Assembly: GCA_043812195.1 (NCBI GenBank)
Contig: JBDRML010000016.1
Coordinates: forward strand, 22,093 to 86,092
Direction: 5' to 3'
Source: Candidatus Woesearchaeota archaeon
Lineage (GTDB): Archaea > Nanobdellota > Nanobdellia > SCGC-AAA011-G17 > PNOQ01
Length of the DNA stretch: 64,000 nucleotides
Below the pieces are notes generated by a model that saw nothing but the letters and a program-made list of their open reading frames with translations, did no database searches and had not been told where the DNA came from. Shown here one piece after another: positions 1,908 through 55,954 of this stretch. Position 1 is the first letter of the stretch. Each line of letters starts with the position of its first letter. A program made the translations under genes and the position numbers.

Positions 1908-3527
1908 ATGACCAGTATATCTAAAAAACATATAGTTTACTTCTTAATTCTAATCTTATTTCTAACAGGATTATTCTTTAGAGTATCATTAGATGGCTTG
2001 CCTGAAAATCACCCAGGAAATCTAAAAGCTGCAAATGCATTCTATCACACAATAGCAGCAGATCATATAGCAGAAACAGGGAAAATATTCAATCATCCTT
2101 GGTGGGATGCAGAAGGTCATGATGACATAATAAGCACAGTATCACAACACGAAGCAGTATTAATAGCTCCTTTAATAAAACTCACAGGAATTCCAGATTG
2201 GAACGCAGCATACTTAATTGTCTGTATATTATCAGCATTAGCTATTCCCCTAATGTACATGTTAACAAGAAAACTATTTAATTCTCATCTTATCGGAATC
2301 ATAGCAGCAGGCGTTTTAGTTTTACCTTTAGACTTATCAAACTGGCTTTATTACCAATATATTGGAATTTGGCTACAATCAAGTGTAACACCTTTCATGT
2401 TATTATCCTTCATATTAATAATTGATATCCTTAAAAAACCAGAAACTTGGAAAATTCTAGCACTAGGAATAAACATAGCAGCAGTATTCCTAATGTTCCC
2501 TCCAGTATTAATTTTCTTATTCCCATTATTACTAATAGTTTTATGGAAATTAGCATTCAAAGAAAAAAAGAAAGCAAAAAGATTAGCAGCATACATCATA
2601 ATCCCATTAATCGCAATTATAATCTTCATGCCTAGTTTATTAGTAGGAGATATTGGAGCAAGAATAAACAATGAAGAATCTCCATTTTATTTTGCAACTC
2701 CAAACTATGATAGCACTCCATTCGCAAAAGGATTTGAAGGCACACCAATCATTTTACTAATCTTATTCGGATTAGGAATAATACAATTATTGTTAAACTA
2801 TAAAAAGTATAGACCATTAATAGCTTATTCAATATACTTTGTAGCTGTAGTATATTTATTCCCATTTTTCATACACAATATGGAATACTATCTAATGAGA
2901 ATGAAAGGATTCTTAATTTACTTAATGGCTCCAATAATAGCTTACGGGATATATTATTTCATAATTAAAAATATAGCAAAATATTTCAACAAAAAAACAT
3001 TAATCACAATAGTAATATTAATCTTATTAGTACTTGGAGGAATATCTCAATTTAACACACTAAAAAGTCAATTAAATTATGAACACATCCCAGCAGACAA
3101 ATATGTAGTAGCTAAATGGATACAAGAAAACATACCAGAAGATGAACATTTATTCATGCTTGAAGGAGATTATCAATTAGAAGCAACTTATTTCCAAAGA
3201 GTTAGATTTACATTATACCAAGAAGAATTCGCTAACTACATAAAACAATTACAAGAAACAGGAGACCCAACAGAAGTAACAGGCCATTGGTCAGGATACA
3301 TAGATTGGAGTAAATGGAAAACAAGAACTGGATATCTAAGTTTTGAAGAATACGAACCACTAAGTAAAACTCAAAAAATAACAGACTTCAATTACATTTA
3401 TCTAGAATCATTAAACCAACAATTACTAGAACTAAACCAATATATCGCATCTTGGCTAGTACAAGAAAATAACTATGAACCAATATATGAACAAGGAAGG
3501 TTCCTAATATTAAAGAAAAATGAATAA
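1908..3527 (+). CDS. polytopic integral membrane protein, putative GT-C fold glycosyltransferase (ArnT/PMT/Gtr-type)
   Basis: 539 aa, about 12 predicted TM helices followed by a ~140-aa hydrophilic C-terminal domain; sits in a three-gene overlap with a small membrane protein and a GT2 dolichyl-phosphate sugar synthase. Confidence 0.4.
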   Translation: MTSISKKHIVYFLILILFLTGLFFRVSLDGLPENHPGNLKAANAFYHTIAADHIAETGKIFNHPWWDAEGHDDIISTVSQHEAVLIAPLIKLTGIPDWNAAYLIVCILSALAIPLMYMLTRKLFNSHLIGIIAAGVLVLPLDLSNWLYYQYIGIWLQSSVTPFMLLSFILIIDILKKPETWKILALGINIAAVFLMFPPVLIFLFPLLLIVLWKLAFKEKKKAKRLAAYIIIPLIAIIIFMPSLLVGDIGARINNEESPFYFATPNYDSTPFAKGFEGTPIILLILFGLGIIQLLLNYKKYRPLIAYSIYFVAVVYLFPFFIHNMEYYLMRMKGFLIYLMAPIIAYGIYYFIIKNIAKYFNKKTLITIVILILLVLGGISQFNTLKSQLNYEHIPADKYVVAKWIQENIPEDEHLFMLEGDYQLEATYFQRVRFTLYQEEFANYIKQLQETGDPTEVTGHWSGYIDWSKWKTRTGYLSFEEYEPLSKTQKITDFNYIYLESLNQQLLELNQYIASWLVQENNYEPIYEQGRFLILKKNE

Positions 3528-3849
3528 ATCAATAAAATTATTAATAATAGAAATAATAATCGTTTTCATAATCAGTATTGTATTAAATAACTTCATAGAT
3601 ATGATAAAATTCACAACCTTTTTCATACTCTTATACTTTATCCCAATTCTTCCATGGGTATCAAAAATAAAAATGAACCTTTTAGAAAAAATGATAATAA
3701 TCAACACAATAGGTTTAGCTTTAATACCAATAGTATACATAATAATAGGATCTTTCACAAAACTATCAACAATCTTATATATTTTAGGAGCAGCAGCAAT
3801 ATTTATAGTTGGGATATTAAAAAATAGAAAAGAAAATGAAAAACATTAG
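3520..3849 (+). CDS. small 3-4 TM membrane protein, GtrA-like (putative lipid-linked sugar translocation helper)
   Basis: 109 aa, entirely hydrophobic helices; start overlaps the upstream gene end and its end overlaps the GT2 start. Confidence 0.35.
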   Translation: MNKSIKLLIIEIIIVFIISIVLNNFIDMIKFTTFFILLYFIPILPWVSKIKMNLLEKMIIINTIGLALIPIVYIIIGSFTKLSTILYILGAAAIFIVGILKNRKENEKH

Positions 3850-7092: not shown

Positions 7093-8307
7093 ATGAAAGC
7101 TCTATTAATAACTGAATACTTTCCACCAATAATACATGGGGGAGGTGAAATAAGCGCATATTCCCTAGCACAAGCTTTAGCAAAAAATAATATAGAAGTT
7201 CATGTTCTTACTTCTTACTTTCCAAACCTCAAAAAATATGAAGAAAAAGATAATATAAAAATATACAGGCTCTTAGAAACAGGATTAAATCCAAGAAAAC
7301 TAACAGATAATATAAAAAGAAACATTCTATTAAAAAGATCTATAAAAAAATACGCCACAGAACTAAATAAAAAAGAAAATTTTGATATAATACACTTTCT
7401 AAATACAACTTCAATAACAAACTTACCAGAGATAAAAGCAAAAAAAATAGCAACAATAAACAATTACACAAACTTCTGTCCCAAATCAGATTTATATTAT
7501 ACAAAAACAAACTTTTCACCAGGAGAAAAAAATTTCAGAAAATATATAATAGAAATGCTTAATACAAACTACATAGGAAAACAAAAATTAAGATTCTATT
7601 TAAAATACAACCCAGCGTTTTTAACATGGCTATATTTAAATTATCTTCAAAGAAGAAAACAAATAAATTATGTAGATAAATTAATAGTCTTAAATGATCT
7701 CATAAAAAGAAAAAACACAGAAAAAATATACAACATAGCAAATATAGAAACAAAAATAACATTCTATCCAATAAAATCAGAAAACAAAAACCCAATAATT
7801 ACATTTATAGGAACTTTAGAAAAAATAAAGGGGGTAGATCTATTAATAAAAGCTTTCTCAAAAACAAAAGAAGCAAATCTATTAATAGTTGGTTCAGGCT
7901 CAGAAGAAAATAATCTCAAACAACTCTGCAAAGAGCTTAATATAGAAAATAAAGTAGAGTTCACAGGAAAACTAAACCAAAAATACTTACCATATATTTA
8001 TTCAAAAACAGACATAGTAGTATTACCAACAAGATGGCCAGAACCATTTGCTAGAGTTCTATTAGAAGCCACATTTTTCAAAAAACCAATAATAGCTACA
8101 AACACAGGTGGAAATCCAGAAGCAGTAATAGAAAATCTAAACGGGTTCCTAATAAACACAGAACAAGAACTAGCAAACAAGCTAAATATACTAATTAACA
8201 ATAAAAATCTAAGGGAAAAAATGGCTATAGAATCAGGAAATATATACAAAACTAAATTCATAACAGAAAAAATTATAAAGCAAATAATACACCTCTATCA
8301 AAAATGA
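7093..8307 (+). CDS. GT4 family (group 1) glycosyltransferase
   Basis: N-terminal ITEYFPPIIHGGGE; C-terminal EPFARVLLEATFFKKPIIATNTGGNPE (E-x7-E GT4 signature). Confidence 0.8.
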   Translation: MKALLITEYFPPIIHGGGEISAYSLAQALAKNNIEVHVLTSYFPNLKKYEEKDNIKIYRLLETGLNPRKLTDNIKRNILLKRSIKKYATELNKKENFDIIHFLNTTSITNLPEIKAKKIATINNYTNFCPKSDLYYTKTNFSPGEKNFRKYIIEMLNTNYIGKQKLRFYLKYNPAFLTWLYLNYLQRRKQINYVDKLIVLNDLIKRKNTEKIYNIANIETKITFYPIKSENKNPIITFIGTLEKIKGVDLLIKAFSKTKEANLLIVGSGSEENNLKQLCKELNIENKVEFTGKLNQKYLPYIYSKTDIVVLPTRWPEPFARVLLEATFFKKPIIATNTGGNPEAVIENLNGFLINTEQELANKLNILINNKNLREKMAIESGNIYKTKFITEKIIKQIIHLYQK

Positions 8308-8899: not shown

Positions 8900-9382
8900 A
8901 TGGAAACGAAGAAAATAAATTTCGGCTGTGGAAAAGATATAAAAAAGGGTTTTTTAAATGTCGATTACCCAGAGATTAATTTGAATAAACCATTACATTA
9001 TCAAGATAATGAATTTGATTATGGTTTGTGTAAATCAGTTATACCTTACTTAAAAAATTTGCATTTTTCATTAAAAGAAATGAAAAGAATATGTAAAAAA
9101 TTAGAAGTTGCATTTCCACATTTCTCTGTTGGGACCCCTAATCAAATATCTTATGGTAAGGTCTATTACTTGGGATTTAGTATTAACAATATGTTTCTAT
9201 TAAAACCTGATGAGATTATAGTTAAAAATTCTTTCTTTAAAATAAAATTAAAGAAGAAGAATTGGAAAGGGAAATTAATGATTTATTTTGAGCAGTATCT
9301 TAGTGCTATAATTAAAATAAGAGAAATGTATTTAATATGGAATAAAAAATCTAATAATTCGCAGGAGAAAACAGGGAGTTGA
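8900..9382 (+). CDS. small putative SAM-dependent methyltransferase-like protein, paralog of 8304..8849
   Basis: INFGCGKDIKKGFLNVD N-terminus; similar layout to the upstream gene. Confidence 0.35.
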   Translation: METKKINFGCGKDIKKGFLNVDYPEINLNKPLHYQDNEFDYGLCKSVIPYLKNLHFSLKEMKRICKKLEVAFPHFSVGTPNQISYGKVYYLGFSINNMFLLKPDEIIVKNSFFKIKLKKKNWKGKLMIYFEQYLSAIIKIREMYLIWNKKSNNSQEKTGS

Positions 9383-9478
9383 TTAAGAATGGAAAACCAA
9401 AACAATCAAGAAAAATATATGAAACAAAATTCAATCCTCAAAAACTAATAAAGCAAATAATAACCCTATACCAAAATG
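9383..9478 (+). repeat. degenerate copy of the 3' end of the GT4 gene 7093..8307
   Basis: Seen directly: ~75% identity to 8235..8310, including the ...aaagcaaataata...ccaaaATGA stop/start overlap arrangement. Confidence 0.5.
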
Positions 9479-9850
9479 AAAATAGCATTACTAATACCAT
9501 CTTTTCTTCCAATGAATGAAGGAGCAAAAAATGGATTTTTAGTTCCTTCTCAAGATTTAGAATTATTTACAGAAAAAGTAACCGTTTAGCTACCTTTTGC
9601 TTTATCGACGATAAACATGATTTTTCACAAAAATGGCCAAAATTGGCTCAGTGACGTTTTTATTCTCGATAAATTAGTTTTTCACTTTCTTTCAGTGGGC
9701 GATCAGCTAAACGGTTACCAGAAAAACAAACATTTTAATACAAAATAAAGACTTAAGAGAAAAATGTCTTTAGAATCAGAAAATATATACAAAACTAAAT
9801 TCATAACAGAAAAAATTATAAAGCAAATAATTGATCTTTATAGTAAATGA
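9477..9850 (+). pseudogene. remnant glycosyltransferase gene: ~34 N-terminal codons (MKIALLIPSFLPMNEGAKNGF...) and ~37 C-terminal codons (near-identical to the GT4 7093..8307 C-terminus) separated by a 141-bp inverted-repeat element
   Basis: Seen directly: 9735..9850 matches 8193..8307 (…ESENIYKTKFITEKIIKQII…*); 9477..9577 encodes a GT4-like N-terminus with no downstream body. Confidence 0.5.
9578..9718. repeat. inverted-repeat element: 14-bp perfect terminal inverted repeats (GTAACCGTTTAGCT / AGCTAAACGGTTAC) around a 113-bp core with internal imperfect direct repeats (CGATAAAc.tgaTTTTTCAC); MITE-like or recombination scar
   Basis: Seen directly in sequence; the same 14-20 nt motif recurs at 39831..39881 and 55901..55918. 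Confidence 0.6.
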
Positions 9851-9891
9851 GTTCATAAGTTTTATAAAACAAATCTCGATTATTTCTGATA

Positions 9892-39593: not shown

Positions 39594-39728
39594 ATTTTTA
39601 TAGTAGTTTTTATAATAGTATTATATCCTATTTTTTAGTATCATAATCCTTATATATAAAACTTTTGATTTTTGCAGAATTTTTTTAAATACTTTATTTG
39701 TTTGGTATAAAATATCAAATAAAAAAAA

Positions 39729-39741
39729 CGCCGCGACTGGG
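39729..39741. repeat. 13-bp copy of the 3' end of the tRNA gene at 40446..40560 (att-like direct repeat)
   Basis: Seen directly: CGCCGCGACTGGG at 39729..39741 equals 40446..40458. Confidence 0.55.
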
Positions 39742-39830
39742 CTTGAGGAGTTTAGGTAGAAATCCGTATTGTTATTTCTACTTTATTTTTATTACTATTA
39801 ATTTAAAGATATATAAATATTTGTTAACTT

Positions 39831-39881
39831 CGTAACCATTTAGTATGCTTAGGCAAACCCTAAGCAGCTAAACGGTTACCG
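39831..39881. repeat. long near-perfect hairpin (22-bp stem, 5-nt loop) whose arms carry the GTAACC(A/G)TTTAG...AGCTAAACGGTTACC motif
   Basis: Seen directly: cgtaaccatttagtatgcttagg-caaac-cctaagcagctaaacggttaccg. Confidence 0.6.
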
Positions 39882-39922
39882 GAAACAGAAATCTTTAAAA
39901 ACAATCATAATAACACTAAAAT

Positions 39923-40373: not shown

Positions 40374-40445
40374 ATGAAATCAGTAATGGCTTATTGTTTT
40401 TAAATTATTTGATTTCAGTGGTGGGATTTCGACCTAAACATAGGA

Positions 40446-40560
40446 CGCCGCGACTGGGATTCGAACCCAGATATCCTTTCGGAAACAGGTTTTCAAGACT
40501 TACGCTTCAAAGATATTAAATCACTTGAATCTGCGCGATACCAGATTACGCGATCGCGGC
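40446..40560 (-). tRNA. tRNA gene (~115 nt, probably intron-containing and/or with long variable arm); anticodon not confidently assigned (candidate CAA/Leu from loop UUCAAGU)
   Basis: Perfect 7-bp acceptor stem GCCGCGA/UCGCGGC, discriminator G, T-arm CUGGG-UUCGAAU-CCCAG, D-loop with GG. Too long for an intron-less type I tRNA; anticodon-stem partner strand is not contiguous. Confidence 0.65.
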
Positions 40561-41208
40561 ATAAACTTTGTAAAACCATGTTGCTTTCAGCCATATTTAA
40601 ATTTAACTGATATGAAAAATATTTGTTTTTTTGTATAACAGCTTTAACAGGTTTATTAAATCCCAATAAACTTTCAGTTATCTTGCCTATATCCAATAAT
40701 AAACCCCTACTAGCCATATGAAATAATACTCTCCCTCTTTTATTTATCACTCTATCTGTTAATAATAATCCAAGGAAAAAATATTTTTTAACTTTCCTAC
40801 ATGAATTCAATATTAAATTCGGAACCCTTACAATAGATGCTTTCTTTCCTGAAGGAATATTCAATTCATTTACTAAATAATCAAACATTGATCTTGAGTA
40901 TTTAAAAAATTCATAGATAGTCTTTCTATTTGACCTAGTTCTATTTATTATCTTTCCTTTCTCACCAAATAAATCAAAGTATAAATTATAAAATAAGTCA
41001 ACTAAAGATTAGAAGTATTATAGAACATAATTGAATAAGTAAGATAACCAGATCCATTCATTACGGTTAGAAATACTACCATCTCCGATTACCATCCCCA
41101 AAAAAAGAGCTAATTTATTAATATTTATATCTTCCACGCCATCCTATAGATTTACAGATTTATAAATTCTGAACCAACATATGATAAAATTTCGGAAAAT
41201 CTTTTTAT

Positions 41209-44910: not shown

Positions 44911-44945
44911 AAAACATCATTTCTCACAAATTACAACATAAAATA
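44911..44945 (+). repeat. copy 1 of a 33-35 bp intergenic direct-repeat family (AAACaTyaTTTyTCACAAATTACAACATAAAA)
   Basis: Seen directly; near-identical copies at 46009, 47378, 47535. Confidence 0.6.
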
Positions 44946-45016
44946 TCTTTCATCAAAAATTTGAAAAGCTTTTTATATTGATAGTAATTCCCACCCAACA
45001 ATAGAAAAACTTATAA

Positions 45017-45029
45017 ATGTAGTCACCCA
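45017..45029 (+). repeat. 13-bp direct repeat ATGTAGTCACCCA bracketing the Fic gene (left copy)
   Basis: Seen directly; identical copy at 45993..46005, immediately after the Fic stop codon. Confidence 0.55.
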
Positions 45030-45039
45030 TATATTAAAT

Positions 45040-45990
45040 ATGAATTTAGAAGTAAGAAATGTTGGGAAAAAGAAAAAGTATTATTTAGCTCACTCATTCA
45101 GAGAAGGAAAAAAAGTAAAGAAAATAAGAAGATATTTAGGCTCAAATCTAAATAAAATTCAACTAGAAAAACTAAAAGAAAGATCAGAAGAAATCATAAA
45201 GCAACAAATAGAAAACTATAAGATCATAGCAGATCCATTAAAACACGAATTAACAGAAAAAGAATTAGAATTCCTAAAAAATTTAGAAACAAAAGGAAAA
45301 ATAGAAATAAAACATCTTTCCAAAGAGCAATGGACTAAATTCACAGAGCTTTTTACATATAACACAAATGCCATTGAAGGCTCTGAAGTAAATCAAAAAG
45401 AAGTTAAAGAAATTTTAGAAGAAAACAAATGGCCAAAAGAAGTAGATAGGGAAGATATTTCAGAAACATACGGGGTAGCAGAAGCAATTGAATTCATAAG
45501 AAAAACAAAAGAACATATATCCCTTTCCTTGATTAAAAAAATACACCAAATAATTTTCAAAAATTCCAAATCATTTGCAGGGAAATTTAGAACCAAAGGT
45601 ATTGAAGTAGCTATTAGGGATAAATTAGGAAATATAGCCCATATAGGGGCTCCTGCCAATAGAATTAGAGGATTATTAGAAGAACTAATAGATTGGCATA
45701 ATAAAAATAAGAATAAATATCCCCCAATACTATTAGCCGCTGTTGTTCATAATCAATTTGAAAATATCCACCCTTTTCAAGATGGCAATGGGAGAGTGGG
45801 AAGGCTATTGTTAAATAATATTTTATTAAAAAATAACCTGCCTCCAGTAAATATAAGTCTTGGAAATAGAAGAGAATATTATTCAACTCTACAATCTTAT
45901 CAAAAAAAAGGAGACATAAAACCCACAATTAAATTGATTTTAAAAGAATATAAAGAATTAAAGAAAGAATTAGGTGTCTACAAAAATTAA
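45040..45990 (+). CDS. Fic/Doc family protein (AMPylation/phosphocholination-type)
   Basis: Canonical Fic motif HPFQDGNGRVGRLL. Confidence 0.85.
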   Translation: MNLEVRNVGKKKKYYLAHSFREGKKVKKIRRYLGSNLNKIQLEKLKERSEEIIKQQIENYKIIADPLKHELTEKELEFLKNLETKGKIEIKHLSKEQWTKFTELFTYNTNAIEGSEVNQKEVKEILEENKWPKEVDREDISETYGVAEAIEFIRKTKEHISLSLIKKIHQIIFKNSKSFAGKFRTKGIEVAIRDKLGNIAHIGAPANRIRGLLEELIDWHNKNKNKYPPILLAAVVHNQFENIHPFQDGNGRVGRLLLNNILLKNNLPPVNISLGNRREYYSTLQSYQKKGDIKPTIKLILKEYKELKKELGVYKN

Positions 45991-45992
45991 TG

Positions 45993-46005
45993 ATGTAGTC
46001 ACCCA
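45993..46005 (+). repeat. 13-bp direct repeat ATGTAGTCACCCA (right copy)
   Basis: Seen directly. Confidence 0.55.
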
Positions 46006-46008
46006 ACA

Positions 46009-46043
46009 TCAAAACATTATTTTTTACAAATTACAACATAAAA
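46009..46043 (+). repeat. copy 2 of the 33-35 bp repeat family
   Basis: caaaacattattttttacaaattacaacataaaac. Confidence 0.6.
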
Positions 46044-46052
46044 CTCAAATGC

Positions 46053-47330
46053 CTATAACAACCATTTCCACAAAGAAATATATTTTATCTTTTTACCATT
46101 AATTCTCTCTTCACCATCCTTATCATTGGTTATAATAACTAAATTATTGCATTTAAGCTCTATACTCGCTTTCAATAATGATTTAATCTCTCTGCTTTTC
46201 GTATTTTCACTTTCAATATCATAGCATACCTGAATTAGTTCTTTAATCTTTAATCCTTCCTTAACAACAAAATCAACTTCATTTTGTTGATGGTCCTTCC
46301 AATAATAAACTTCAGTATTAATTTTATCGTTTTTGAACTTTCTTCTTAATAATTCTATAACGACTATATTTTCGAATAATTTACCATTATCTTTCGACAA
46401 CCTAAAACTAACAAAATTGCAGAATCCATGATCAACAGAATAAACCTTTTTAGGAGCAATTATTTGCTGTTTCAATTTATTTGAATATCTTTCCAAAACT
46501 ATTATCAAAAAAGCTTCCTTTAAATAATTAACATAGTTTTTAATCGTATGAGGATCTTTTATATTAAATATTTTAGAAAGTTTTGAATATGTAAATTCAC
46601 TAGAAAAATTGCTTATGAGATAGCTAGAAAGTTCTCTAAAAGTGCCTTTTTTTTCAATAGCATATCTTCTCAAACAATCTTTGTTTATTATATCCTCGTA
46701 AATTCTCACAACCATATTTGAGCCAAACTTTGCAAATTCAGGAAATCCGCTGCCATGAAGATACTTATTAAACTCCCGCCTTATTTTGGCGCGATCTTCA
46801 GTTGCATAAATATTAGGCTTAAAGCTTAATGTTTCTTTAAATGAAAACGGATATAAAACAAAATCTATGTATCTGCCAGTTAAATGAGTAGCTAACTCAC
46901 CGGATAATAATTTAGAATTACTGCCGGTTATAATAACTTTCTTGCTTCTTCTAAGCCTTGTCGCAAATAATTCCCAGCCAGTTACATTTTGAATTTCATC
47001 CAAAACTACAAGGTCTATATCACCATACATTTCATAAAATGCTTCCAATATTTTATTCAAATCAGATGTCTTGACATTAATCAGCCTTTCATCGTCAAAG
47101 TTTATATAAGCAAAATTTTGTTTTAATTCTTTTGATAAAATCAGAGAAAAAATAGACTTTCCGCTTCTTCTAACACCAAGTATAGCAAGTATATTAGGAT
47201 ACTTAAGATATTTTTTCTCGTAGTCTATGAGCTCTCTTTCTACTATTTTCTCTTCACTAAATTTCTTTTCCAGCTCTCTCCTTTGGTCTTCTATTATCCT
47301 TTTTAGTATCTCTAATTGCATAGGAATCAA
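46053..47330 (-). CDS. AAA+ superfamily ATPase with DUF4143-like C-terminus (COG1373-type predicted archaeal ATPase)
   Basis: P-loop GVRRSGKS; Walker B LVVLDEIQ; 425 aa. Confidence 0.7.
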   Translation of the reverse strand: MIPMQLEILKRIIEDQRRELEKKFSEEKIVERELIDYEKKYLKYPNILAILGVRRSGKSIFSLILSKELKQNFAYINFDDERLINVKTSDLNKILEAFYEMYGDIDLVVLDEIQNVTGWELFATRLRRSKKVIITGSNSKLLSGELATHLTGRYIDFVLYPFSFKETLSFKPNIYATEDRAKIRREFNKYLHGSGFPEFAKFGSNMVVRIYEDIINKDCLRRYAIEKKGTFRELSSYLISNFSSEFTYSKLSKIFNIKDPHTIKNYVNYLKEAFLIIVLERYSNKLKQQIIAPKKVYSVDHGFCNFVSFRLSKDNGKLFENIVVIELLRRKFKNDKINTEVYYWKDHQQNEVDFVVKEGLKIKELIQVCYDIESENTKSREIKSLLKASIELKCNNLVIITNDKDGEERINGKKIKYISLWKWLL

Positions 47331-47377
47331 AACACAAACATCTTTATAAAGTTTGCGGTTACGAACTACATACTTTT

Positions 47378-47470
47378 AAACCTTTATTTTTCACAAATTA
47401 CAACATAAAATTCAAATTCCCAAGATCTCCTAAAAGATTCAGAATTAATGCCTAAAAAACAATCTCCAAC
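47378..47470 (+). repeat. copy 3 of the 33-bp repeat plus ~60 bp duplicate of the 3' end of the pilin-like gene 47541..47951 (93-bp segment ~90% identical to 47535..47628)
   Basis: Seen directly: ...cacaaattacaacataaaattcaaattcccaagatctcctaaaagattcagaattaatgcctaaaaaacaatctccaact versus 47535 onward. Confidence 0.6.
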
Positions 47471-47534
47471 TACGCTCAAACTATGCCATTATTCACAAAA
47501 AGTTTAGTATTCTTAAATAAAAAGTGAATAATAG

Positions 47535-47569
47535 AAACATTTATTTTTCACAAATTACAACATAAAATT
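47535..47569 (+). repeat. copy 4 of the 33-bp repeat, overlapping the true 3' end of pilin-like gene 47541..47951
   Basis: aaacatttatttttcacaaattacaacataaaatt. Confidence 0.6.
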
Positions 47570-47951
47570 CAAACTCTCCAGACCTTCTAAAAGATTCAGA
47601 ATTAATGCCTAAAAAACAATCTCCAACTCTAATTTCTTCACCACTACTGCATTCCATTACAAATCCAGAATCCTCATCAACAAAATTCATATTCCCAGAT
47701 ACAAAATTTCTCAATGTATTACAATCAACTTCTTCACCCAAACAACAACTAGTTGCTAAATCTCCAAAATTAGTTCCGCTAACATCAGCTTTAGCCAAAG
47801 CATTAGCAAAATTATACGCTTTATTATTCAAATAAACATTCCTATCATCTCCTCCACTCCTAGAAAACAATAAAGCAAACAACCCAATAAACACAACTAA
47901 CAAAACAATAATAACCAATCCAAATGTTTCTATTTGTCCTTTTTTAAACAT
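47541..47951 (-). CDS. class III signal peptide (archaeal type IV pilin-like) protein
   Basis: N-terminus MFKKGQIETFGLVIIVLLVVFIGLFALLF: basic residues, G-Q processing motif, hydrophobic helix. Confidence 0.5.
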   Translation of the reverse strand: MFKKGQIETFGLVIIVLLVVFIGLFALLFSRSGGDDRNVYLNNKAYNFANALAKADVSGTNFGDLATSCCLGEEVDCNTLRNFVSGNMNFVDEDSGFVMECSSGEEIRVGDCFLGINSESFRRSGEFEFYVVICEK

Positions 47952-55054: not shown

Positions 55055-55267
55055 TATTAACTTAAAAACAAGATAGAAACTTATAAACTTTTCCTTTTAT
55101 TAGTTTACGACATAAATAAAATATAAAAACTATTAAAGATTTTTCCATTATTTAACACCTTAAGCTATTTCTAAGATATATTAATATAACTTACTTTTGT
55201 CCAGTAACTATATCAATCTTGAAACTATTAATAATTAGAAAAAACAAGATTTATAATATTTAATTAT

Positions 55268-55609
55268 TCACCTACCTTCTGCCCCTATCACAATTTTATT
55301 TCCAATTTTTGTTATAGATATTTCAGTATGCTCATCCAATTTAAGTTGTTTTTCTAAGTCACTGGGTATTCTAAATGTTAAACCACCCCCGCTTTTTGAC
55401 AGATGTCTATAAAGCTTTAACGGCTCAGGCCAAACACCTAATTTTCTTGCTACTTCAATTGTTTTTTGTGTTTCTTCTTCAAAAGGGAACTCTTCATTAC
55501 AATTAATACATCTCTCCCCCTTAACTATAAACACATAACCTTCAATTTCTAATACTATATCCTCTACTTTTATTAAATTTCCTTTCTCACATGTTAGACA
55601 TTTTCTCAT
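55268..55609 (-). CDS. putative antitoxin: YgiT/MqsA-type zinc ribbon + AbrB/SpoVT-like C-terminal domain
   Basis: CLTCEKG...CINCNEE zinc-ribbon pattern; C-terminal GGGLTFRIPSDLEKQLKL...ISITKIGNKIVI swapped-hairpin-like. Confidence 0.4.
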   Translation of the reverse strand: MRKCLTCEKGNLIKVEDIVLEIEGYVFIVKGERCINCNEEFPFEEETQKTIEVARKLGVWPEPLKLYRHLSKSGGGLTFRIPSDLEKQLKLDEHTEISITKIGNKIVIGAEGR

Positions 55610-55848
55610 TTTCCTTCAGCTCCAGTTATTATGAAAATTTCTTTATAATCCTCATCCTTTATAAATATTAATTTCCTACTTTTTCTTTTTGTCCTCATAT
55701 ATGCCTCATATTTATTTTTGCCAACTTTGTCAATCTTATACGCATTCTCCAATGCATTTTTTAGTGAATAAATATCATAATCCCACTTTCTCATCCATGT
55801 TAAAATAAAATGCTTGCTTGGTCTAATTTTGTAGTTACTTATGTCCAT
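55606..55848 (-). CDS. putative toxin, DUF4258-like (RelE/BrnT fold)
   Basis: 80 aa; HFILTWMRKWDYDIYSLKNALENA...KLIFIKDEDYKEIFIITGAE resembles DUF4258; 4-nt overlap with the downstream gene. Confidence 0.35.
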   Translation of the reverse strand: MDISNYKIRPSKHFILTWMRKWDYDIYSLKNALENAYKIDKVGKNKYEAYMRTKRKSRKLIFIKDEDYKEIFIITGAEGK

Positions 55849-55900
55849 ACTTTTTCACTACTTTTTGTGGTATTTTTGATATATATAAATCTTTCTTTTT

Positions 55901-55918
55901 TAGTAGCTAAACGGTTAC
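55901..55918. repeat. single copy of the AAAAAGTAACCGTTTAGCTAC motif (reverse orientation) between the toxin-antitoxin pair and PCNA
   Basis: Seen directly: tagtagctaaacggttac; reverse complement matches 9572..9592 over 21 nt. Confidence 0.55.
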
Positions 55919-55954
55919 TTTTTTAGAACCCTCATTTCACTTGTCTATCAACTA

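What the first reader, a model, noticed from the sequence alone, without database searches (positions are those of the whole stretch)
9578..9718. Recurring ~20-nt motif (core AGCTAAACGGTTAC) forming inverted repeats or hairpins at three rearrangement-associated sites
The same motif occurs in three places. At 9578/9705 it forms 14-bp perfect inverted repeats around a 113-bp core. At 39831..39881 its two halves pair into a 22-bp-stem hairpin. At 55901..55918 it is a single copy whose reverse complement matches 9572..9592 over 21 nt. Each copy lies at a site with signs of genome plasticity: the glycosyltransferase gene remnant, the tRNA-3'-duplicate islet with a RelE toxin, and beside a toxin-antitoxin pair. 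A GC-containing 14-mer is very unlikely to recur by chance in ~30% GC DNA. Candidate roles are a MITE-like miniature element, a site for a site-specific recombinase, or a structured small RNA or regulatory hairpin.
Basis: seen in the sequence. Interest (0 to 1): 0.65.

Follow-up and report, generated by a model that had tools for sequence, protein, structure and literature searches.

The report
IS66-type miniature transposon ends (MITE)
The recurring 14-base motif is the terminal inverted repeat of a small non-coding transposon (a MITE) related to IS66-family insertion sequences; this is an ordinary kind of mobile DNA, found here in a Woesearchaeota genome, and every copy sits right next to a promoter-like TATA box.

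Summary
The exact 14-mer occurs four times, and a fifth degenerate copy forms the hairpin's left arm; 0.29 matches were expected by chance. The motif is the terminal inverted repeat (TIR) of a MITE family.

- **Site 1 (9578-9718)** is an intact 141-bp MITE with perfect 14-bp TIRs and a perfect 8-bp target-site duplication (TSD), CAGAAAAA. Removing it restores a colinear glycosyltransferase remnant.
- **Wider family:** a two-TIR pattern found 92 metagenome and 99 genome stretches, in Betaproteobacteria, Planctomycetota, Nitrosopumilaceae and Woesearchaeota. Of these, 84 of 184 have perfect 8-bp TSDs; a shifted control gave 0 of 183.
- **Autonomous partners:** elements with the same ends are single-ORF IS66-family insertion sequences. 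One is 1751 bp in a metagenome. Another is an intact 1676-bp IS on a Methylotuvimicrobium plasmid, with an 8-bp TSD.
- **Site 2** is a 48-bp two-TIR hairpin without a TSD, lying exactly at a strain-level homology breakpoint.
- **Site 3** is a solo TIR flanked by an 8-bp repeat, inside a cassette of about 860 bp that is absent from relatives.

No transposase lies in the window. The kind of element is known, so this is a new member.

One extra lead: in AT-rich archaeal hosts, every insertion has a TATA-like box exactly 14 bp from a TIR end.

The parts
9578..9718 (.). Intact 141-bp MITE (non-autonomous transposon), 113-bp non-coding core
   Evidence: Perfect 14-bp TIRs. It is 84% identical over its whole length to a 142-bp copy in a Woesearchaeota MAG (L235 = L166 = L153) that has different flanks and its own TSD. 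The internal 43-aa ORF has no Pfam hit. DNA fold -20.9 kcal/mol, z = -4.4.
9578..9591 (+). Left terminal inverted repeat GTAACCGTTTAGCT
   Evidence: It matches the family TIR consensus GTAACCGTTTAG(A/C)C and the IS ends in L325 and L333.
9705..9718 (-). Right terminal inverted repeat (reverse complement of the left)
9570..9577 (+). Left copy of the 8-bp target-site duplication CAGAAAAA
   Evidence: Read directly from the sequence. The chance of an exact 8-bp repeat at this spacing is about 5e-5.
9719..9726 (+). Right copy of the 8-bp target-site duplication CAGAAAAA
   Evidence: Deleting 9578-9726 restores colinearity with the intact paralogue 7093-8307.
9476..9853 (+). Glycosyltransferase C-terminal pseudogene remnant that received the insertion
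   Evidence: Alignment to the paralogue's 3' end...ELFTEK | NILIQNKDLREKM... against ...ELANKL NILINNKNLREKM....
39832..39879 (.). 48-bp mini-element made of two TIR-derived arms (39832-39853 and 39859-39879) around a 5-nt loop, with no TSD
   Evidence: The flanks TTAACTTC and CGGAAACA do not match. Strain contig L123 is 99.3% identical to window 40893-39880 and diverges exactly at the outer end of the right TIR.
55904..55918 (-). Solo TIR remnant GTAACCGTTTAGCTA
   Evidence: It is conserved in 6 strain-level contigs, with one SNP (GTAATCG...) in L125 and L126.
55896..55903 (+). 8-bp direct repeat TTTTTTAG, inner copy, flanking the solo TIR
   Evidence: The chance of an exact 8-bp repeat at spacing 15 is about 8e-5.
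55919..55926 (+). 8-bp direct repeat TTTTTTAG, outer copy, flanking the solo TIR
55093..55953 (-). Cassette of about 860 bp (solo TIR plus two overlapping small genes, 55606-55848 and 55268-55609), absent from related genomes
   Evidence: In relatives L335 (PCNA 75% identical) and L336 (79%), PCNA is followed after 39-50 nt by the 278-aa gene and its conserved promoter.
9733..9740 (+). TATA-like octamer TTTTAATA, 14 bp beyond the right TIR (TSD + CAAACA + TATA)
   Evidence: It derives from glycosyltransferase codons (NILI) that are homologous to the paralogue.
39894..39901 (+). TATA-like octamer TTTAAAAA, 14 bp beyond the right arm and 21 nt before ATG 39923
39810..39817 (-). TATA-like octamer TTTATATA, 14 bp beyond the left arm
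55882..55889 (-). TATA-like octamer TTTATATA, 6 bp beyond the inner direct-repeat copy and 33 nt before ATG 55848

Best explanation
[quoted passage not shown] These are non-autonomous derivatives of a single-ORF (ISBst12-like) clade of IS66-family insertion sequences.

How it works: a DDE transposase of that clade binds the GTAACCGTTTAG... ends and joins them to staggered cuts 8 bp apart in the target. Repair of the gaps produces the 8-bp target-site duplication.

- Site 1 is an intact 141-bp copy that inserted into an already decayed glycosyltransferase remnant (shown).
- Site 2 is a copy reduced to its two ends. It now sits at a rearrangement junction inside a tRNA-linked islet, having lost its target duplication through an adjacent deletion or through recombination between copies (inferred).
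- Site 3 is one end of a copy that lost the rest of the element but kept both target-duplication copies, a nearly precise internal deletion (inferred).

The host is a Woesearchaeota (DPANN) archaeon. The window encodes no transposase. Mobilisation must therefore come in trans from elsewhere in the genome or from a past resident (inferred).
For: - **Motif statistics:**
- **Site 1 anatomy:** 14-bp perfect TIRs plus an 8-bp TSD. Excising the element restores a colinear glycosyltransferase remnant. The chance of such a repeat is about 5e-5.
- **Family size:** the two-TIR pattern (24 fixed or semi-fixed bases, gap 87-147) hit 92 metagenome stretches and 99 genome stretches. About one hit was expected on my own arithmetic, and there were 0 in viral contigs.
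- **Target duplications:** 84 of 184 elements have a perfect 8-bp TSD and 18 more have one mismatch. In a control shifted by 8 bp, 0 of 183 had one mismatch or fewer.
- **Second copy of the same subfamily:** L235 (Woesearchaeota) is 84% identical over the full length, with unrelated flanks and TSD CTGGTTTA.
- **Autonomous partners:**
  - L325 3638-5388 is a 1751-bp IS with TIR GTAACCGTTTAGCC, perfect TSD GATCAAAC and a frameshifted PF03050 transposase.
  - L333 1176-2851 (Methylotuvimicrobium alcaliphilum 20Z plasmid) is an intact 1676-bp IS with TIR GTAATCGTTTAGCCCCC and TSD GTCGAGCT. Its single 526-aa ORF hits NF033517 IS66 family transposase at 224 bits (cutoff 180) and PF03050 at 128 bits.
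  - L151 and L326 have the TIR 10-26 nt after the stop codon of an IS66 C-terminal domain.
- **Published parallel:** the ISBst12-group element ISDge4 has TIR GTAACTGCTCAGCA, an 8-bp direct repeat and a single ORF (PMC12898284).
- **Site 2:** the homology breakpoint falls exactly at the TIR end.
- **Site 3:** the flanking 8-bp direct repeat has a chance of about 8e-5, and the cassette is absent in relatives.
Against: - No IS66-type transposase is in the 64-kb window or in the fetched archaeal loci that carry this TIR. The only archaeal IS66-family element seen, in L228, has different ends.
- Only one window copy (site 1) has the full MITE anatomy.
- Site 2 has no TSD.
- The structure at site 3 cannot be derived from a full copy by a simple microhomology deletion; every model I tried is off by one base.
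- About 45% of the two-TIR elements elsewhere lack an 8-bp TSD. Some have 9-bp TSDs; others are probably nested or rearranged.
- No empty-site allele of site 1 was found among strains. L001 and L180 are identical to the window.
Confidence: 0.9

Rival explanations
1. The motif is a cis-regulatory operator or hairpin, or it encodes a small structured RNA that controls the adjacent toxin-antitoxin-like genes. Its recurrence would then reflect a shared regulator, not transposition.
For: At sites 2 and 3 the motif lies 14-15 nt upstream of BRE/TATA-like promoter modules of small genes. The site 2 hairpin is unusually stable (z = -6.0).
Against: There is no Rfam family at gathering score, and only noise at E-values up to 10. 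The same ends bound about 190 elements with 8-bp TSDs in unrelated bacteria and archaea, and also bound IS66-family transposase genes. Site 1 lies in a pseudogene. The motif's orientation relative to the TATA box differs between site 3 and sites 1 and 2.
Confidence: 0.04
2. The motif is the core or arm site of a site-specific (tyrosine or serine) recombinase that integrates and excises the islets at the three sites.
For: Site 2 lies in an islet bounded by a duplicated tRNA 3' end. Site 3 lies in a cassette absent from relatives. The homology with L123 ends exactly at the motif.
Against: The att-like repeat at site 2 (CGCCGCGACTGGG) is a different sequence. No integrase gene lies nearby. The 8-bp duplications of arbitrary sequence at about 100 sites are the signature of a DDE transposase, not of site-specific recombination. 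At site 3 the motif lies 36 nt inside the cassette, not at its edge.
Confidence: 0.03
3. Sites 2 and 3 are not decayed insertions. They are transposon ends that have been retained (domesticated) because they serve the neighbouring promoters or cassette mobility, for example as binding sites for a transposase-derived regulator.
For: The site 3 solo TIR is conserved in six strain-level contigs with only one SNP. Both sites sit immediately upstream of BRE/TATA modules of mobile small-gene cassettes.
Against: The strains are nearly identical throughout, so this conservation says nothing about selection. No transposase-derived gene is nearby. The 8-bp repeat at site 3 is explained by ordinary insertion.
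Confidence: 0.08
4. The 14-mer at site 1 is a fragment of glycosyltransferase coding sequence (codons for ...QLNGY..., resembling ...ENLNGF... of the paralogue), and the other copies are chance.
For: The paralogue has ATCTAAACGGGTTCC at 8133-8147, a 3-mismatch match. The ORF through the right TIR reads SVGDQLNGY against AVIENLNGF.
Against: The remnant already contains its own NGF segment upstream (GAKNGFLVPSQDLELFTEK) and becomes colinear once the element is removed. Four exact copies cannot be chance, and the family exists in about 190 unrelated loci.
Confidence: 0.01

Closest known systems
ISBst12-like single-ORF group of the IS66 family (for example ISDge4 of Deinococcus geothermalis; the intact IS on Methylotuvimicrobium alcaliphilum 20Z plasmid NC_016108.1, 16407-18082)
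   Same: The ends begin 5'-GTAAC, the target duplication is 8 bp, and the partner elements are 1.68-1.75 kb with one IS66-family DDE transposase gene. The ISDge4 TIR GTAACTGCTCAGCA matches the window motif at 10 of 14 positions.
   Different: The window elements encode no transposase and are 15-141 bp long. They are derivatives, not members. Classical IS66 elements (three ORFs tnpA/B/C, 2.5-2.7 kb; from memory of ISfinder and Han et al. 2001) are larger.
Prokaryotic MITEs in general, including those counted in archaeal and DPANN genomes (PMC11602168)
   Same: Small, non-coding, bounded by TIRs, flanked by TSDs, multi-copy, and sharing ends with an autonomous IS. That census reports a Woesearchaea genome among the archaea richest in MITEs.
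   Different: That census reports MITEs as largely taxon-specific. Here the terminal 12 bp are identical across Betaproteobacteria, Planctomycetota, Elusimicrobia, Nitrosopumilaceae and Woesearchaeota, while the internal sequences are unrelated. I found no paper that prints this TIR in a transposon context.
Nearly precise excision remnants and IS-mediated adjacent deletions (Tn10/Tn5 literature; from memory)
   Same: Site 3 keeps both target-duplication copies around a short terminal remnant. Site 2 sits at a junction where one flank has been replaced and the TSD lost.
   Different: The mechanism was not tested here. The site 3 remnant does not fit a simple microhomology deletion of a site 1-type copy.
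Promoter-targeted integration such as yeast Ty3 at TFIIIB-bound Pol III promoters (from memory)
   Same: In AT-rich archaeal hosts the insertions lie at a fixed distance from a TATA box. That box is the binding site of TBP/TFB, the archaeal counterparts of TBP/Brf1.
   Different: This is a resemblance only. Ty3 is a retroelement with an integrase-TFIIIB contact. Here there are five events, no protein evidence, and no such bias in bacterial hosts.

Membership tests
MITE (miniature inverted-repeat transposable element) | Short (under about 300 bp) with no transposase gene | tested here: met
   141 bp. The only internal ORF (43 aa) has no Pfam hit, and tblastn with IS66 transposases finds nothing in the window.
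MITE (miniature inverted-repeat transposable element) | Terminal inverted repeats | tested here: met
   Perfect 14-bp TIRs at 9578-9591 and 9705-9718.
MITE (miniature inverted-repeat transposable element) | Target-site duplication directly abutting both ends | tested here: met
   CAGAAAAA at 9570-9577 and 9719-9726, with a chance of about 5e-5. Across the family, 84 of 184 are perfect against 0 of 183 in the control. Not met at site 2; met at site 3 around a solo end.
MITE (miniature inverted-repeat transposable element) | Multiple copies at unrelated loci, and evidence of insertion (an empty site) | tested here: met
   There is a second copy of the same subfamily in L235 with different flanks and about 190 family members. 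A pseudo-empty site comes from the paralogue alignment. No true empty-site allele was found.
MITE (miniature inverted-repeat transposable element) | Ends shared with an autonomous IS | tested here: met
   L325, L326, L151, L333 and L334.
MITE (miniature inverted-repeat transposable element) | Cognate transposase available in the same genome | tested here: inconclusive
   None in the 64-kb window. The rest of the 139.8-kb contig and the MAG could not be read, because the look-ups failed or were exhausted.
IS66 family, ISBst12-like group (the partner IS, not the window element) | IS66-type DDE transposase | tested here: met
   NF033517 at 224 bits (cutoff 180) and PF03050 at 128 bits (cutoff 23.1) for L333. 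PF03050 for the fragments in L318, L325 and others.
IS66 family, ISBst12-like group (the partner IS, not the window element) | Ends beginning 5'-GTAA and an 8-bp direct repeat | tested here: met
   L325 has GTAACCGTTTAGCC with GATCAAAC. L333 has GTAATCGTTTAGCCCCC with GTCGAGCT. The published ISDge4 has GTAACTGCTCAGCA with an 8-bp repeat.
IS66 family, ISBst12-like group (the partner IS, not the window element) | Single ORF (no tnpA/tnpB), about 1.4-1.9 kb | tested here: met
   L333 is 1676 bp with one annotated CDS of 1581 bp. L325 is 1751 bp.
IS66 family (the window element itself as an autonomous member) | Encodes its own transposase | tested here: not met
   There is no transposase in or near any of the three sites. 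It is a derivative, not a member.
IS200/IS605-derived palindrome-associated elements | Subterminal hairpins, no TIRs, no target duplication | tested here: not met
   TIRs and 8-bp TSDs are present.
Described RNA families (Rfam 15) | Match to a covariance model at gathering score | tested here: not met
   There are 0 matches in the window. Around site 2 there are only sub-threshold noise hits.

The most novel reading that the evidence does not exclude
In AT-rich archaeal hosts this MITE subfamily inserts at a fixed position immediately upstream of BRE/TATA promoter modules. The layout is an 8-bp target, then 6 bp of the form SAAANN, then TTTAWATA.

All five insertion events that could be examined show it: window sites 1, 2 and 3, L235 and L143. 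At site 1 the TATA-like box is merely decayed coding sequence, which points to target choice and not to selection or cargo. Among 187 insertions in hosts with 36% GC or more, only 2 show it.

If real, this would be promoter-directed integration in Archaea. The transposase might sense TBP/TFB-bent DNA, or a sequence that mimics it. The element would then be systematically placed to rewire upstream regulatory DNA in very compact genomes.
Probability: 0.3. Interest if true: 0.65.

Novelty: new member of a known kind. Interest (0 to 1): 0.33.

Why it matters
- **Annotation:** three puzzling repeats in a DPANN genome are explained as one ordinary process, a non-autonomous IS66-type transposon. One copy marks a strain-level rearrangement breakpoint, another a recently acquired cassette and the third a decaying glycosyltransferase remnant.
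- **Mobile-element biology:** a 12-bp end sequence is kept unchanged while the cognate transposases diverge to 41-59% identity. The same ends occur on MITEs in several bacterial phyla and two archaeal phyla. This clade is therefore a candidate for cross-domain spread.
- **The fixed spacing to TATA-like boxes in archaeal hosts:** if confirmed on more genomes, this would be a new and testable example of promoter-directed insertion.

Tried and rejected
- **Scanning with the 14-mer alone:** The motif is too short, so I replaced it with a two-TIR pattern.
- **Pattern syntax:** Using H as the separator solved it.
- **Right flank as part of the repeat unit:** family D14 is 83% identical over 40 nt between sites 1 and 2. 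I rejected this reading. At site 1 the flank is homologous to the glycosyltransferase paralogue, and the first 8 bp are the target duplication. The similarity is the shared BRE/TATA-like context.
- **Coding origin of the motif (LNGY codons):** rejected.
- **Strain variants for empty sites:**
  - Site 1 contigs are identical to the window.
  - Site 3 is present in all six contigs.
  - Contigs anchored on the permease gene do not reach site 2.
  - Three exact-protein look-ups failed, probably because of start-codon choice.
- **Nitrosopumilaceae IS66-family element in L228 as the archaeal partner:** its ends are different, GTATGAGTTCACG....
- **Other examples of a solo TIR flanked by a short repeat:** none among 49 solo ends in the fetched loci.
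- **Microhomology models for site 3:** each is off by one base.
- **Similarity between the MITE core and the intergenic repeat family at 44911-47577:** at chance level.
- **Literature:** a search for the TIR string found only an unrelated primer. Han et al. 2001 is not held in the library.

Full report
**Observation.** The exact 14-mer AGCTAAACGGTTAC occurs at 9578-9591 (minus strand), 9705-9718, 39866-39879 and 55905-55918. At up to two mismatches there are five matches against 0.29 expected, and none of 100 shuffles reached five. The fifth match, at 3110, lies inside ORF 1908-3527 and is chance. At up to three mismatches the only further meaningful match is the left arm of the site 2 hairpin; the other six are in line with the 3.2 expected. 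The hairpin stem has 19 base pairs with interruptions, not a clean 22. The window is 29% G+C and archaeal (PCNA, TFS, RpoL). Its PCNA is 100% identical to a protein of an NCBI Candidatus Woesearchaeota MAG on a 139,779-nt contig.

**Site 1 is an insertion.** The 141-bp unit 9578-9718 has perfect 14-bp terminal inverted repeats. It is directly flanked on both sides by CAGAAAAA, at 9570-9577 and 9719-9726. An exact 8-bp repeat at that spacing occurs at about 5e-5 of window positions. The unit interrupts a decayed C-terminal remnant of a glycosyltransferase. When the unit and one repeat copy are removed, the remnant (...NGFLVPSQDLELFTEK / NILIQNKDLREKMSLESENIYKTKF...) aligns colinearly with the 3' end of the intact paralogue 7093-8307. 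One resemblance looked suspicious: the right repeat reads QLNGY, close to the paralogue's ENLNGF codons. It is coincidental, because the remnant already contains its own NGF segment upstream.

**The motif is the end of a widespread transposon family.** I therefore searched for two ends in inverted orientation, 87-147 bp apart (GTAACCRTTTAG...CTAAAYGGTTAC).

- By my arithmetic about one chance hit is expected per collection.
- The metagenome collection gave 92 stretches and the species-representative genomes gave 99.
- The viral collection gave none for either the long or the short spacing.
- Of 184 elements with readable flanks, 84 have a perfect 8-bp direct repeat abutting both ends and 18 more have one mismatch. 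When the right flank is shifted by 8 bp, none of 183 has one mismatch or fewer.
- The elements fall into several length and sequence clusters that share only the ends, with consensus GTAACCGTTTAGACCCC.
- Hosts named in the records include several betaproteobacterial lake MAGs (tens of copies each), Planctomycetota, Elusimicrobia, Methylococcales, Accumulibacter, Thiosymbion, a Nitrosopumilaceae MAG (about 15 loci) and a Woesearchaeota MAG.
- The window's element has exactly one relative in these data. It is a 142-bp copy in Woesearchaeota RIFCSPLOWO2_02_FULL_32_17 (L235, also seen as L166 and L153). It is 84% identical over its whole length, with unrelated flanks and its own duplication CTGGTTTA.

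**The autonomous partner is an IS66-family insertion sequence.** Several lines of evidence agree:

- In L151 the same end lies 10 nt after the stop codon of an IS66 C-terminal domain.
- Homologues of that fragment are all annotated or precomputed as PF03050.
- One homologue, L325 3638-5388, is a 1751-bp element. It has ends GTAACCGTTTAGCC, a perfect duplication GATCAAAC and a frameshifted IS66-type transposase.
- A tblastn search of plasmids found an intact copy in a cultured organism, Methylotuvimicrobium alcaliphilum 20Z plasmid NC_016108.1 (L333 1176-2851). It is 1676 bp, with ends GTAATCGTTTAGCCCCC and duplication GTCGAGCT. Its single 526-aa ORF passes the NCBIfam IS66 equivalog (224 bits against a cutoff of 180) and PF03050.
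- These transposases are only 41-59% identical to one another, yet the terminal 12 bp are the same or differ at one base.
- A single ORF, ends beginning GTAAC and an 8-bp repeat match what is published for the ISBst12 group of the IS66 family (ISDge4: GTAACTGCTCAGCA, 8-bp repeat, one 449-aa ORF; PMC12898284).
- That IS66 ends generally begin GTAA with 8-bp duplications is my recollection of ISfinder and Han et al. 2001, which I could not read.

**Sites 2 and 3.**

*Site 2* (39832-39879) consists of two TIR-derived arms of 22 and 21 nt around a 5-nt loop, and it has no target duplication. It lies in an islet of about 700 bp between an intron-containing tRNA-like gene and a 13-14-nt copy of that gene's 3' end. 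The tRNA-like gene (40447-40560, minus strand) is not called by ARAGORN and gets only a weak Rfam hit. The islet carries a ParE/RelE-family toxin gene. A contig from another metagenome (L123) is 99.3% identical to window 40893-39880 and then diverges completely, exactly at the outer base of the right TIR. So the element sits at a rearrangement junction. An insertion followed by an adjacent deletion, or recombination between two copies, would explain both the junction and the missing duplication. This is inferred, not shown.

*Site 3* is one end only (GTAACCGTTTAGCTA), flanked by the 8-bp repeat CTAAAAAA on both sides; the chance of that is about 8e-5. It is present in all six strain-level contigs, with one SNP in two of them. 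In two relatives whose PCNA is 75% and 79% identical, PCNA is followed within 39-50 nt by the conserved promoter and the 278-aa gene. In the window, about 860 bp lie between them, comprising the solo end plus two small overlapping genes. The solo end lies 36 nt inside that cassette, so it does not bound the cassette. I read it as the remnant of a copy that lost its interior. No simple microhomology deletion reproduces it exactly, and no second example was found among 49 solo ends elsewhere.

**What was excluded.**

- No Rfam family matches.
- No integrase or transposase lies in the window.
- The att-like tRNA repeat is a different sequence from the motif.
- The only archaeal IS66-family element seen (L228, Nitrosopumilaceae, 515-aa transposase) has different ends, GTATGAGTTCACG..., and its own 8-bp duplication CTGCAAAG. 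The archaeal partner of these MITEs is therefore still unidentified.

**An unplanned observation.** In the AT-rich archaeal hosts, every insertion event has a TATA-like octamer exactly 14 bp beyond a TIR end. I counted a match to TTTAWATA with at most one mismatch. The layout is the 8-bp duplication, then a 6-bp BRE-like SAAANN, then the octamer.

- Site 1 right: CAGAAAAA CAAACA TTTTAATA.
- Site 2 right: CGGAAACA GAAATC TTTAAAAA, 21 nt before ATG 39923.
- Site 2 left: GAAGTTAA CAAATA TTTATATA.
- Site 3, beyond the inner repeat copy: CTAAAAAA GAAAGA TTTATATA, 33 nt before ATG 55848.
- L235: CTGGTTTA AAAAAG TTTAAATA.
- L143: TTAAAAAA GAAACT ATTAAATA, 21 nt before an ATG.

The background rate of such octamers is 0.0056 per position per strand in the window and 0.012 in its intergenic parts. 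Five of five events is therefore far beyond chance, even after allowing for the post hoc choice of offset and pattern. Among 187 unique insertions in hosts with 36% G+C or more, only 2 show it. In those hosts the target shows a palindromic preference instead: C W | G W W N N W W C | W G. At site 1 the octamer is made of glycosyltransferase codons (NILI) that are homologous to the paralogue, so it was part of the target and not carried by the element. Targeted insertion next to promoter-like DNA is the simplest reading, but it rests on only five events.

**Comparison and verdict.** This is a MITE in every tested respect and a derivative of the ISBst12-like group of IS66. It is not itself an IS66 member, since it encodes nothing. 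MITEs are well known in prokaryotes. A 2024 census already lists a Woesearchaea genome among the archaea richest in MITEs (PMC11602168). I therefore rate it a new member of a known kind, with modest interest.

What remains open:
- where the transposase is;
- how sites 2 and 3 were reduced;
- whether the fixed spacing to TATA-like boxes reflects real promoter targeting.

Noticed in passing
window 9733-9740, 39810-39817, 39894-39901, 55882-55889; L235 5843-5850; L143 9451-9458: Every insertion of this MITE subfamily in AT-rich archaeal hosts has a TATA-like octamer exactly 14 bp from a TIR end (8-bp TSD + SAAANN + TTTAWATA). Only 2 of 187 insertions in hosts with 36% GC or more show this.
   Followed up: partly
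window 40447-40560 (-), with repeats at 39728-39741 and 40445-40458: A tRNA-like gene with a long insert (intron or variable arm) is missed by ARAGORN and gets only a weak Rfam tRNA-Sec hit (E = 0.7). A 13-14-nt copy of its 3' end lies about 700 bp away. The two repeats bracket a ParE/RelE toxin gene, which looks like the remnant of an integrated element.
   Followed up: partly
L123 1015-1116 (ENA ERZ928008): Beyond the site 2 junction this strain contig continues with 102 nt of about 47% G+C carrying one open frame. It is unlike the 29% G+C host. It may be foreign cargo of a larger integrated element or an assembly chimera.
   Followed up: no
window 8204-8307, 9377-9480, 9747-9850: There are three tandem copies of the 3' end of the glycosyltransferase gene: one intact gene and two remnants. 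They are separated by two small methyltransferase-like ORFs, so this is a locally rearranging glycosylation cluster.
   Followed up: partly
window 44911-44953, 46011-46053, 47378-47471, 47535-47628: An intergenic repeat family (core TTATTTTTCACAAATTACAACATAAAAT) has four copies, two of them 94 nt long and 94% identical. Its similarity to the MITE core is at chance level.
   Followed up: partly
L300 161-1376 (betaproteobacterial MAG KTt_bin-1310): A 1216-bp element is bounded by the same TIRs with a perfect 8-bp TSD, GCTGGATC. It carries no transposase but has a 159-aa ORF with weak CCHC zinc-knuckle and MUG113-like hits. This is a cargo-carrying non-autonomous relative.
   Followed up: partly
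L228 about 2045-3745 (Nitrosopumilaceae MAG CBDATR01): An intact archaeal IS66-family IS has a 515-aa transposase, different ends (GTATGAGTTCACGTGTTTTGATC) and an 8-bp TSD, CTGCAAAG. In the same MAG, three GTAACCGTTTAG-ended MITEs have 9-bp rather than 8-bp duplications: L302, L317 and L255.
   Followed up: partly
L151 127-7661 (JGI Ga0194057): An IS66-type element with these TIRs is split by about 5.8 kb of nested insertions, which include IS630-like transposase fragments and further MITE copies.
   Followed up: no
Their function is unverified, but the cassette is absent from related genomes.
   Followed up: partly
window 40493-40888 (-): A 131-aa ORF overlaps the 5' part of the tRNA-like gene. 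Its motif ...YFFLGLLLTDR... is reminiscent of LAGLIDADG endonucleases (my impression only), and it has no family hit.
   Followed up: no
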